DNA of 64,000 nt, from NCBI RefSeq assembly GCF_009914755.1, contig NC_060930.1; one strand, written 5' to 3'. Positions 19,207-30,148 of the stretch are shown here, piece after piece; position 1 is the stretch's first letter; each line of letters opens with the position of its first letter. A program made the translations under genes and the position numbers. The notes below the pieces were generated by a model that saw only the letters and a list, made by a program, of their open reading frames with translations, was not told the DNA's origin and ran no database searches. This stretch comes from the human T2T-CHM13v2.0 reference genome, Homo sapiens.

Positions 19207-19278
19207 ATGGCTGCCGTACGCCGGGCCCGCAGTTATTGCCGCTGCCTGGTGCGCTTCTCCGACCGAGAACTCTGCTAA
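19207..19278 (+). CDS. uORF in FBXO9 5' leader: MAAVRRARSYCRCLVRFSDRELC* (23 aa)
   Basis: Strong Kozak context AAG ATG G; stops 116 nt before the main ATG. Confidence 0.7.
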   Translation: MAAVRRARSYCRCLVRFSDRELC

Positions 19279-24751: not shown

Positions 24752-26331
24752 GCATGTTTCTTCAATTGTGTCTTTGATTTTTATTCCATTGTTCCCATAC
24801 ATATGCAGAAATTGATCATAATCATGGGTATTTGTAGGTTATTACTGTTTGCATGGAATTTAACTGTTTCCATACTGGTTTATAGAATACTTAAAACTAT
24901 GTTATGGCTTTCTTTGTGAAAAGAAATATCAATAATGGTTGCTTGTAGTTTAACATGGGTTTAAAGTATTCAAACTAAGGCTTACGCATGACTCAAAACC
25001 CATAATCTTAAAAAGATTGATGGGTTTGACCACCTAAAAGTTTAAAACCTGTGTATAAGAAAAGGCATCATAAATAAAGTTAAGAGAAATAGCCAGCTGG
25101 AAAAACTGTTTATTATATATGGGCAGAGGATTCATCTCATTACATAGAGCACTCATATATTTGGAAGAACAGAGGATAAAAAGATATGAGTGGACTGTTA
25201 ATGGCAAAATAATACAAATGGCCATTAAATATTTGAAGAGATAATTAGCCTCATTAATAATTTAATCAGATTGGTGAATAATGTGCATCGCTGTCCAAGC
25301 TGTGAGAACACTCATGCAGTGTACATGAAAATGTAAATTGGTACAGCTTTCTGGAGGGCAGACTGGTGATATGGATCAAAATGAAAAACATGCATTCCCT
25401 TGATACAGCAATTCTACTTCCAGGAAATTAATTTTAAGGAAATAGTGGGGAAAGTAAATATGCAACTATAAAGATGTTTAGTATAGCATTGTTTATCTGG
25501 AAAAACATCATACAACTTAAATATTCATTACCTGTTATTAAGTAATGATGCATCCATACAGTGAAAACACTACAGCCATTTAAAAGGATGAAGTAAATCT
25601 TTATACATTAAAAGAGAAAAAAAGTTGCTGTAACTAGTTAAGTGTGTCTCACTGCACTTGTAAGGTTAATAATAATTATTTGGAACAGCTCATCTAGTAG
25701 ACATTGAATGCTGCTAAAGATTCTGCAGGTCAGAGATCTATGTGTAACAGGTTAAAAGCGTAGCAACAAAGCAGTGTACAGAATATAGAGAAAAATTAAT
25801 TTAAAACATTCTAGATACGTCTTTTTAAAAAAAAAAAAAAGGAAGCCAGGAATAACATATGCATCCCTGTTAGCAATGGCTGCCTTTGGGCAGAACGTGT
25901 AACCCAGTTTGGGTTCCCCAGGAAGCAGACTAGGTGAAGATTGCTGTGCAGGAAGTTTATTAAGGAGTATTCTTGGGATCAACACCTATGGAAGGGAGAG
26001 AGGGAAACAAATGGGCAGGGAGAAGACCAGCTGCAATGCAGTCTTAATGGACTGCTTAGCCATCCTCGAGGGAGTTCTGAAGATGAAATACCCTTTCAGA
26101 GATGACCTGAGTTGCAAAGAGCCAAGACTTTATTAGCCGTTGATCAGTCATTGGGTGGGGATTGAGAGGACAGTGTGATTTTGCTGAGGCAATACCCAAA
26201 AGGGCTGACAACTCAAGTGTTTTCAGATAGAACTCTCAGCAGTTTGGGTAACAAGTTCTTTATTTCTGAAAGGGAATCTGGGCAACACACCAGAGTCTAC
26301 CTTATAGGGTTCACTTTTTATGTGCTTTTAA

Positions 26332-26630
26332 TTTTTTTTTTTTTTGAGATGGAGTCTCGCTCCATTGCCCAGGCTGGAGTGCAGTAGCACGATCTCTGCT
26401 GACTGCCAACCTCTGCCACCCGAGTTCAAGCAATTCTCATGGCTCAGCCTCCCAAGTAGCTGGGATTACAGGTGCCCGCCACCACACCTGGCTAATTTGT
26501 TTGTATTTTTAGTAGAGACAGGGTTTCACCATGTTGGCCGGGCTGTTCTCGAACTCCTGACCTCAGGTGATCCGTCTGCCTCGGCCTCCCAAAGTGCTGG
26601 GATTATAGGCATGAGCCTCTGTGCCTGGCC
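26332..26630 (-). mobile_element. Alu (AluS-like)
   Basis: Antisense dimer. Confidence 0.9.
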
Positions 26631-27088
26631 TTTACATTTTTGAAATAACAAATATTTGAAAAAACATTTTCTTTTTGAAATACAGAATGTTAATAGATTT
26701 TGGGCTTACCTACAGAATTTTTGGCAGCATTCTTAATGTCTACTAGATGATATAGTCATTAAAAAATTATTGGAAGCTTATAACTTCAGTCTGTAAGTGA
26801 TGGCTTATATTTTCAATTCTAATTAAAATTTGGTTTTCCAATATAATTTGACTTTTGGTGTACTGACATGTATTTTATGCTAATTTTCTTGATTCTTTAA
26901 GTTTTGAGCAGAAAATTATTTTAAAAGATGTATTTAATGGATATTTAATAATTCAGAAGACAGTGATTTCTGGACTTAGAGTAATAAGTATATACGTGGA
27001 AGTAGATAGATGTTGGACATATTGATACATTGTTCCAGAGTTGAGCTACCCTTCCTTGATGAGTCCTAAAATGCTGTTCTCCCCATAG

Positions 27089-27247
27089 GCACAACTCCAG
27101 ATGTTCCGAGCTCAGTGGATGTTTGAACTTGCTCCAGGTGTAAGCTCTAGCAATTTAGAAAATCGACCTTGCAGAGCAGCAAGAGGCTCTCTCCAGAAAA
27201 CATCGGCAGATACCAAAGGAAAACAAGAACAGGCAAAAGAAGAAAAG
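27089..27247 (+). CDS. FBXO9: FBXO9 exon 3 ([14 protein letters not shown]...AKEEK)
   Basis: ccccatag acceptor; 159 nt needed to keep frame, so donor is AAG|TTAAGT. Confidence 0.9.
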
Positions 27248-27939
27248 TTAAGTATTATAGATATTGTAACAAATTACATTTTTTTTTTTTGGCACATGGA
27301 AATTTTCACTGACACAGTAAGTAGGCATTATAACCAGACTTTCGGGACATAAACACATATCTTGTAAAATAAAAATTTTGACTAGTATACTAGTTTATAT
27401 ATTTCTCACAATTTCTTCTAGGTACTTTGGATGGTACCACTACTCCTGCATGGCTTTTTTCTCTGTGGGTACACTGTCTTCATTGAGCTGTCTTTTGTTA
27501 ATTTATAGACCTCTGGGATTCATGTGGTTCCTAAAAGATTGGTGTCTCTGAATTTATTAACAGAACCAAAAAGAAAAAACAGAATTTTCTAAATTTATTA
27601 ATAGAACCAAAAAGATTGCTCACATGTTAATGTCTTTCCAGAGGTCTTAATTTCATGCAGTATTTTGTTATATTTTGAATTGATCAGCTTACAATAATGC
27701 ATTAATCATTTCCTTATTCTGGAAAATTTTGAAATATTTTCACACTGAAAATATTTTGAATGCTGTCTAACATTCATATCTCTTCTGGTACTTACTCACA
27801 CAGAGTAGGCACAGCATACCATTTCATTTCTTATTCTTCCATAGAGGCTGCCATCTTTTTACCATCAGATCCAAGTTTGTGTTTATAATTAGTCATCAAA
27901 TAATTGGCATTACCATGATGACTTACCTTCTATCTCCTC

Positions 27940-30030
<2,091 letters not shown>

Positions 30031-30090
30031 TGCCATCCATACTAATTTTTAATGCAGGTTTTCAAAAATTTTTACTTTATATTTTTATAG

Positions 30091-30148
30091 GCTCGAGAAC
30101 TCTTCCTAAAAGCAGTAGAAGAAGAACAAAATGGAGCTCTCTATGAAG
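30091..30148 (+). CDS. FBXO9: FBXO9 exon 4 (ARELFLKAVEEEQNGALYE), TPR-like segment
   Basis: tttttatag acceptor, AAG|GTAAAA donor; 58 nt. Confidence 0.95.

What the first reader, a model, noticed from the sequence alone, without database searches (positions are those of the whole stretch)
27240..27256. FBXO9 needs a TT-AG intron; an overlapping GT one base upstream gives a premature stop (possible 1-nt splice/NMD switch)
Seen: exon 3 reads GAA GAA AAG|TTAAGTAT and exon 4 starts tag|GCT CGA GAA. The 13 segments give an intact 1314-nt frame only if intron 27248-30090 begins TT. Positions +2..+8 (TAAGTAT) perfectly match the U1 snRNA 5' end; only the normally invariant +1 G is missing. The only adjacent GT (AA|GTTAAGTA, starting 27247) joined to the same acceptor reads K-L-E-N-S-S-stop (TAA 30107-30109), far upstream of later junctions. 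Known: GTTAAGT donors are recognised by shifted U1 pairing, TT donors are very rare, and I recall the FBXO9 protein reading EEK-AREL with no insert. Inference: one U1 site, two cleavage registers, one productive and one NMD-targeted, so the level of this SCF substrate receptor could report 5' splice-site fidelity (U6/U5/PRP8). I cannot tell whether this is already described.
Basis: partly seen in the sequence, partly recalled or inferred. Interest (0 to 1): 0.88.

Follow-up and report, generated by a model that had tools for sequence, protein, structure and literature searches.

The report
Known TT-AG intron of FBXO9
Intron 3 of the human FBXO9 gene really does begin with TT instead of the near-universal GT, but this rare splice site, and its tendency to be cut one base too early, were already published in 2018.

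Summary
Window 27245-27255 reads AAG|TTAAGTAT. All 3 RefSeq FBXO9 mRNAs use intron 27248-30090 (TT-AG), and the 1314-nt frame is intact. Cutting one base earlier, at the GT at 27247, and joining to the same acceptor gives K-L-E-N-S-S-stop, with TAA at 30107-30109, 937 nt before the last junction.

One correction: a GT..TA intron (27247-30089) gives the identical mRNA. "Only if the intron begins TT" is therefore not strictly true.

The case is already in print. PMC6280755 (Genome Res 2018) names the FBXO9 site aAG TTAAGTAT as a natural TT 5' splice site, citing PMC4176328. Moved into a reporter, it was spliced at both -1 and +1. The same paper invokes NMD for -1 GT neighbours of other TT sites.

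The "one U1 site, two registers" part is therefore supported and known. The "NMD switch / fidelity sensor" part has no evidence. I found no paper on the endogenous -1 junction.

I could not test orthologue DNA, population frequency or RNA-seq counts.

Verdict: real, rare, already known, low interest.

The parts
27089..27247 (+). FBXO9 coding exon 3 of the select transcript (159 nt, phase 0 at both ends); ends ...GAA GAA AAG
   Evidence: RefSeq exon in 3 of 3 transcripts; translation ends ...AKEEK
27208..27247 (+). Purine-rich exon end (85% purine, 4 GAA); putative exonic splicing enhancer. This is inferred, not tested.
   Evidence: Highest purine fraction of the 12 exon ends, next 0.72. The 2018 paper found noncanonical donors strictly dependent on flanking enhancers (abstract). 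The ETV1 TT site has only 60% purine, so this is not a shared feature.
27245..27255 (+). Donor core AAG|TTAAGTAT (-3..+8): the U1-complementary site with T at +1
   Evidence: 9 of 11 Watson-Crick matches to the U1 5' end. Best ViennaRNA duplex is in this register, -5.9 kcal/mol. Printed identically in PMC6280755.
27247..27248 (+). GT of the -1 register (last exon base G plus intron +1 T)
   Evidence: Use with the AG acceptor shifts the frame by -1 and gives a stop after 6 codons. The -1 register was seen in the reporter.
27252..27253 (+). Second GT at +5/+6
   Evidence: The 2018 paper reports that accurate +1 TT splicing depended on a GT at +5/+6.
27248..30090 (+). Intron 3, 2843 nt, TT-AG as annotated
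27279..27290 (+). Run of 12 T, 32-43 nt into the intron; possible U-rich intronic enhancer (inferred only)
   Evidence: The first 60 intron nt are 48% T, marginally the highest of the 12 introns (next 0.47). ETV1 has 27%.
30069..30090 (+). Pyrimidine-rich tract and AG acceptor (tttttactttatatttttatag)
30091..30148 (+). FBXO9 exon 4 (58 nt), begins GCT CGA GAA
30107..30109 (+). TAA that becomes an in-frame premature stop only in the -1 register

Best explanation
Intron 3 of FBXO9 is a constitutive U2-type intron with a noncanonical TT-AG boundary.

U1 snRNA pairs with the donor in the ordinary register: 2 exon base pairs, a single mismatch opposite T at +1, then 7 contiguous pairs at +2..+8. 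Positions +4..+6 (A-G-T) also fit the usual later U6 contact in that register, a step inferred from general knowledge. The spliceosome therefore mostly cuts after the exon's last G even though +1 is U. This gives the productive EEK|AREL mRNA.

The last exon G and the +1 T also spell GT. A fraction of events is cut one base early, using the same U1 helix read as a 'shifted' register. That product is frameshifted, stops after 6 codons, and is expected to be removed by NMD.

I read this minor product as imprecision inherent to G|TT donors, not as a regulated switch.

Shown: the anatomy, the frame consequences, and the two registers in a reporter (published). Inferred: the U6 contribution, the enhancer roles of the purine-rich exon end and the T-run, and NMD of the -1 product.
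For: - TT-AG is annotated in 3 of 3 RefSeq mRNAs with an intact frame.
- The -1 register gives a stop at 30107-30109, 937 nt before the last junction.
- No AG acceptor rescues that frame, 0 of 44.
- U1 matches are 9/11 in the TT register against 4/11 for the GT read unshifted.
- The best duplex is in the TT register at -5.9 kcal/mol. A bulged-U register that pairs the G with U1 C8 scores -3.8.
- PMC6280755 names FBXO9 aAG TTAAGTAT as a natural TT site, spliced at -1 and +1 in a reporter, while ETV1 aAG TTAAGTtg was spliced only at +1.
- In their RNA-seq all nine high-confidence TT sites were the primary site of their cluster. NMD was suggested for the -1 GT neighbours in NPIPB3/4.
- The ETV1 site is present in this genome at an exon-like boundary.
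- The shifted U1 register is established (PMC4856993 introduction).
Against: - By nearest-neighbour energy the U1 duplex is only the 4th weakest of the 12 FBXO9 donors (-5.9; range -3.9 to -9.1; consensus -15.2). 'Strong compensation' holds by match count, not by energy.
- The energy gap between the TT and bulged-U registers is the same for FBXO9 and ETV1, about 2.1 kcal/mol. My model therefore does not explain why only FBXO9 showed the -1 product.
- The purine-rich exon end and T-rich intron start are not shared by ETV1.
- The mRNA alone cannot separate TT..AG from GT..TA.
- The reporter figure is a supplement I could not see.
- Endogenous use of the -1 junction was not examined by me, nor by any paper I found.
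Confidence: 0.85

Rival explanations
1. Regulated splice/NMD switch. The ratio of +1 to -1 cleavage is set by spliceosome fidelity factors or splicing regulators. Through NMD it then tunes the amount of FBXO9.
For: - Both registers occur in a reporter, and the register depended on flanking enhancers and nearby U1 sites.
- The -1 product is NMD-eligible by position.
- FBXO9 is among 20 differentially expressed genes shared by two NMD-factor-deficiency data sets. The direction is not in the main text (PMC9090808, passage only).
- FBXO9 is listed among genes with cassette-exon changes on snRNA knock-down (PMC6771400, passage only).
Against: - No paper reports the endogenous -1 junction or its regulation.
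- In fibroblast RNA-seq only 3 of 9 high-confidence TT sites had a secondary GT neighbour, and FBXO9 is not one of the three named. Whether FBXO9 is among the nine is in a supplement I could not see.
- The two expression hints are unspecific. They concern gene level or cassette exons, not this junction.
Confidence: 0.08
2. The intron is really GT..TA. The 5' cut is at the GT (27247) through shifted U1 pairing, and the 3' cut is one base upstream of the AG (after 30089). This gives the same mRNA.
For: - The mRNA is identical.
- The shifted register is established.
- As quoted in PMC6280755, an earlier study found the FANCC TT site spliced exclusively at the -1 GT in another reporter.
- U2-type introns with a good GT donor and a non-AG 3' end exist: 99 across five species in PMC1557818.
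Against: - It needs a TA 3' terminus right beside a perfectly good AG.
- The FBXO9 and ETV1 donors gave the +1 product in a heterologous reporter, away from FBXO9's own acceptor.
- In RNA-seq, TT sites were always the primary site. [quoted passage not shown]
Confidence: 0.05
3. Rare allele or assembly error: most genomes have G at 27248 and an ordinary AAG|GTAAGTAT donor.
For: T to G would give a near-consensus donor (read). Population data were not available to me.
Against: The 2018 paper prints the same 11 bases with T, taking the site from a 2014 survey of human RNA-seq. Both predate this assembly (date recalled). RefSeq curated mRNAs align across it as TT-AG.
Confidence: 0.02

Closest known systems
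ETV1 constitutive TT-AG intron (PMC4176328 Figure 6B text; PMC6280755)
   Same: Same core AAG|TTAAGT, with G at -1 and a second GT at +5/+6. Annotated and constitutive. Confirmed here in this genome at L004 291-301, minus strand, after an exon-like stretch preceded by ...tcctctttcag.
   Different: ETV1 has tg at +7/+8, so it makes fewer U1 pairs (duplex -3.9 against -5.9 kcal/mol). In the reporter it was cut only at +1, while FBXO9 was cut at -1 and +1. Its flanks are less purine-rich and less T-rich.
FANCC c.165+1G>T mutant TT donor (published variant; discussed in PMC6280755)
   Same: The pattern ..G|TTAAGTAg, with residual correct splicing at TT and competition with the -1 GT.
   Different: It is a pathogenic mutation of a former GT site with low activity. 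The FBXO9 site is the normal, sole annotated donor of a constitutive coding exon.
Shifted-register 5' splice sites (/GUUAAGU class; ref. 10 of PMC4856993)
   Same: The same U1 helix: U1 pairs one base downstream of where the GT would place it.
   Different: In that class the GT is the productive cleavage site. In FBXO9 the GT cut is the unproductive one, and the productive cut follows the U1 register despite U at +1.
TT sites with -1 GT neighbours in NPIPB3/NPIPB4 (PMC6280755)
   Same: A primary TT site with a minor out-of-frame GT junction at -1, for which the authors suggest NMD.
   Different: There the -1 junction was measured endogenously (2% against 10% gene-normalised reads). For FBXO9 I found no endogenous measurement.

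Membership tests
Natural U2-type TT-AG introns | The intron of the curated mRNA alignment starts TT and ends AG | tested here: met
   3 of 3 RefSeq transcripts. Caveat: a GT..TA drawing gives the same mRNA.
Natural U2-type TT-AG introns | The rest of the donor is U2/U1-like | tested here: met
   9 of 11 matches to the U1 5' end, 7 of them contiguous at +2..+8
Natural U2-type TT-AG introns | At least one GT within the site (-1/+1 or +5/+6), as reported for all TT sites in PMC6280755 | tested here: met
   GT at 27247 and at 27252.
Natural U2-type TT-AG introns | Experimentally observed cleavage at +1 | not testable with these tools
   Reported for the FBXO9 site in a reporter (main text). The figure is a supplement that I did not see.
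Shifted-register GT 5' splice sites | U1 pairs better one base downstream of the GT-defined register | tested here: met
   4 of 11 matches unshifted against 9 of 11 shifted
Shifted-register GT 5' splice sites | The GT is the site that yields the functional mRNA | tested here: not met
   The GT cut with the AG acceptor gives a stop after 6 codons, and 0 of 44 alternative AG acceptors rescue the frame
U12-type (minor spliceosome) intron | Donor /RTATCCTT and a branch site TCCTTAAC near the 3' end (consensus recalled) | tested here: not met
   The donor is TTAAGTAT. No such branch motif is seen by eye in the last 70 nt.
Regulated unproductive splicing coupled to NMD | The alternative junction creates a stop more than about 50 nt upstream of the last junction | tested here: met
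   TAA at 30107-30109, 937 nt before the last junction
Regulated unproductive splicing coupled to NMD | The alternative junction is present endogenously and stabilised when NMD is blocked | not testable with these tools
   No reads are available. No paper was found.
Regulated unproductive splicing coupled to NMD | The ratio changes in response to a signal or to the gene's own product | not testable with these tools
   Nothing was found

The most novel reading that the evidence does not exclude
The choice between cutting at G|UU and at A|GUU in FBXO9 intron 3 is not fixed noise. It varies with spliceosome state or splicing regulators (U1C/LUC7-type factors, SR proteins, U6/U5/PRP8 fidelity). 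Because the -1 product is destroyed by NMD, this 1-nt choice would set FBXO9 dosage. At the least, it would offer an endogenous single-gene readout of 5' cleavage-register fidelity.
Probability: 0.08. Interest if true: 0.55.

Novelty: already known. Interest (0 to 1): 0.15.

Why it matters
The site is one of very few natural, constitutive exceptions to the invariant G at intron position +1. PMC6280755 counts 121 TT among 341,386 Ensembl introns with an AG 3' end, and nine high-confidence TT sites in its fibroblast RNA-seq.

It matters in three practical ways:
- Aligners and gene-builders that accept only GT/GC/AT donors break such genes. PMC4176328 shows this for ETV1.
- A +1G>T variant is not automatically null.
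- It shows that U1 and later contacts, rather than the GT itself, can fix the cut.

For FBXO9 specifically, an unmeasured share of transcripts may be lost to a 1-nt early cut. All of this is established in outline. What remains open is only the endogenous size and regulation of the -1 product.

Tried and rejected
Retrocopies. I searched the whole genome with exon 3 (159 nt) to read the spliced junction from a processed pseudogene. The only match was the gene itself, 1 of 1.

Orthologue proteins. FBXO9 exons encode at most 53 aa, and I may not type a joined protein. I searched exon 3's translation alone and no candidate shared enough words. 23 candidates of unnamed source were left out. With the length filter (29-93 aa) this blank says nothing about orthologues. 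I did not repeat it.

Orthologue DNA, population frequency and RNA-seq reads. No tool here holds vertebrate genomes, variant tables or reads, so none was done.

U12-type intron: rejected by eye, no RTATCCTT donor. RNA editing to a canonical site: rejected on principle, since A-to-I editing cannot turn U into G. PMC4176328 describes editing only for A-containing sites (abstract).

Frame rescue of the -1 donor by another AG acceptor: 0 of 44. An open-ended micro-exon search was not done; the curated mRNAs contain none.

Thermodynamic explanation of why FBXO9 but not ETV1 shows the -1 product: it failed. The gap between registers is about 2.1 kcal/mol in both.

Enhancer features as a common trait of TT sites: not supported by the single comparison with ETV1.

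Papers:
- PMC6280755: outline, sections 6 and 16, part 1 of 2 of section 17, and passages.
- PMC4176328: outline, sections 17 and 18, and passages. FBXO9 is absent from its main text (0 hits for 'fbx'), so its listing there is taken from the 2018 paper's citation and presumably sits in the closed supplement.
- PMC4856993, PMC1557818, PMC2882926, PMC6771400, PMC9090808, PMC3723527 and PMC9776223: passages only.
- The 2009 and 2012 U1-register papers and the 2010 FANCC paper were not held. They are cited only as quoted by others.
- (TT splice + U1 snRNA + FANCC; 32 papers, 15 listed): I read the listing only.
- (TT-AG etc.; 3 papers) added nothing on FBXO9.

Full report
What is there. The window reads ...GAA GAA AAG|TTAAGTATT... 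at 27239-27256 and ...tttttatag|GCT CGA GAA... at 30082-30099. I rebuilt all three RefSeq FBXO9 transcripts from the annotation file. Each uses intron 27248-30090, whose ends are TT and AG. The select transcript NM_033480.3 gives a 1314-nt, 437-aa frame without internal stops, reading ...AKEEK|ARELF... across the junction. Window base 27248 is chr6:52,913,248 of T2T-CHM13.

Ending exon 3 at 27246 (GT donor at 27247) and keeping the AG acceptor gives ...EEKLENSS followed by TAA at 30107-30109, 937 nt before the last exon junction. None of the 44 AG dinucleotides between 27300 and 30148 that lie in the phase needed to repair this shift gives a stop-free reading. The facts of the observation are therefore right.

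A correction. The last exon base is G and exon 4 also begins with G. An intron drawn as 27247-30089 (GT..TA) therefore produces exactly the same mRNA as 27248-30090 (TT..AG). The mRNA alone does not prove that the cut is before TT. There is also a second GT at +5/+6 (27252), whose use would shift the frame by 4 nt.

U1 complementarity. Counted against the 11-base U1-complementary consensus (recalled, and consistent with the U1 5' end printed in PMC4856993), the TT register has 9 of 11 Watson-Crick matches. This is the highest count of the 12 FBXO9 donors; the others score 5-8. The GT read in its own unshifted register has 4 of 11.

By nearest-neighbour energy the picture is less flattering. 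The best duplex is in the TT register at -5.9 kcal/mol. That makes it the fourth weakest of the 12 donors (range -3.9 to -9.1; consensus oligo -15.2), because the +1 mismatch splits the helix. A register that bulges one U so that the exon's last G pairs with U1 C8 scores -3.8.

Flanks. The last 40 nt of exon 3 are 85% purine with four GAA, the highest of the 12 exons. The first 60 intron nt are 48% T, marginally the highest, and include a run of 12 T at 27279-27290. I take these as candidate enhancers, because the 2018 paper found noncanonical donors strictly enhancer-dependent (abstract). This is inference only.

What is in print. A full-text search for FBXO9 with 'non-canonical splice' returned one paper, PMC6280755 (Genome Res 2018). 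Its section 'Accuracy of noncanonical TT splicing' names FBXO9 and ETV1 as two naturally occurring TT splice sites, citing the 2014 survey PMC4176328. [quoted passage not shown] The same paper reports several related points:
- Accurate +1 use depended on a second GT at +5/+6 and on suboptimal U1 complementarity.
- The register can be moved by flanking enhancers and nearby U1 sites.
- All nine high-confidence TT sites in its fibroblast RNA-seq were the primary site of their cluster.
- It gives 121 TT among 341,386 Ensembl introns with an AG 3' end.

FBXO9 does not occur in the main text of the 2014 survey (0 hits). That survey does describe ETV1's constitutive TT-AG junction and states that 28% of its noncanonical sites are conserved in mouse.

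Comparison from elsewhere. I fetched the ETV1 gene region of this genome and found the published ETV1 motif once on the gene's strand, at L004 291-301. It closes an exon-like stretch that follows ...tcctctttcag. ETV1 shares the AAG|TTAAGT core but pairs less with U1 (-3.9 kcal/mol). Its flanks are only 60% purine and 27% T, so the flank features of FBXO9 are not general to TT sites. The gap between the TT and bulged-U registers is about 2.1 kcal/mol in both genes. Simple duplex energy therefore does not explain why only FBXO9 gave the -1 product.

How it most likely works. U1 binds in the ordinary register with one mismatch at +1. The bases at +4..+6 suit the later U6 contact in the same register (established knowledge, not tested here). 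The cut therefore usually falls after the exon's last G despite U at +1. Because G|T also spells GT, some events are cut one base early with the same U1 helix. This is the 'shifted' register described in the literature (PMC4856993 introduction). The early cut gives a frameshifted mRNA whose stop position makes it an expected NMD substrate.

How U at +1 passes the second step is unexplained. The 2018 authors say as much.

Rivals. The GT..TA drawing is possible on the mRNA alone. Introns with good GT donors and non-AG ends do exist (PMC1557818). But it needs a TA terminus next to a good AG. It is also contradicted by +1 products of the FBXO9 and ETV1 donors in a heterologous reporter.

A rare allele or assembly error is unlikely, because the 2018 paper prints the same bases.

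For a regulated switch I found only unspecific hints. FBXO9 is one of 20 differentially expressed genes shared by two NMD-factor-deficiency data sets, with direction not given in the main text (PMC9090808). FBXO9 is also listed among genes with cassette-exon changes on snRNA knock-down (PMC6771400). Searches for FBXO9 with nonsense-mediated/UPF1 (3 papers), NMD (8 papers), U1 snRNA (3 papers) and noncanonical/splice (8 papers) produced nothing on this junction beyond the 2018 paper.

What I could not do. No tool here holds vertebrate genomes, population variants or reads. Exon 3 has no retrocopy in this genome. The one protein search possible under the rules (exon 3 alone, 53 aa) was blank for reasons of length filtering.

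Verdict. The TT-AG intron is real and rare. Both it and its two cleavage registers are already described, so the finding is not new. The regulatory reading stays speculative.

Noticed in passing
window 24752-27088: The intron just upstream of exon 3 is GC-AG (donor cag|GCATGTTT, 8 of 11 U1 matches). Two consecutive FBXO9 donors therefore lack GT.
   Followed up: partly
window 27317-27324: A good GT donor (aca|GTAAGTAG, 7 of 11 matches, -7.2 kcal/mol) lies 69 nt into intron 3. The 69 nt are in frame and stop-free, so its use would insert 23 residues. It is not in any of the 3 RefSeq transcripts.
   Followed up: partly
window 27279-27290: A run of 12 T, 32-43 nt downstream of the TT donor. It could be a U-rich enhancer and is likely to be length-polymorphic. 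Neither point was tested.
   Followed up: no
window 30040-30057: Read by eye: a branch-like TACTAAT at 30040-30046 is followed by an AG at 30056-30057, 33 nt upstream of the used acceptor. Using that AG would add 33 nt ending in an in-frame TAG.
   Followed up: no
L004 291-301 (minus strand; G000 C7, ETV1): The published ETV1 TT donor AAG|TTAAGTTG is present in this genome at the end of an exon-like stretch. A second copy of the motif at L009 1168-1178 is on the opposite strand to the gene and looks like chance.
   Followed up: partly
window 19207-19278 (LOC128031835): A small annotated coding gene sits inside the FBXO9 5' exon. A review table lists an FBXO9 upstream-ORF peptide said to bind the main protein (PMC9776223, passage only). 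Whether the two are the same was not checked.
   Followed up: no
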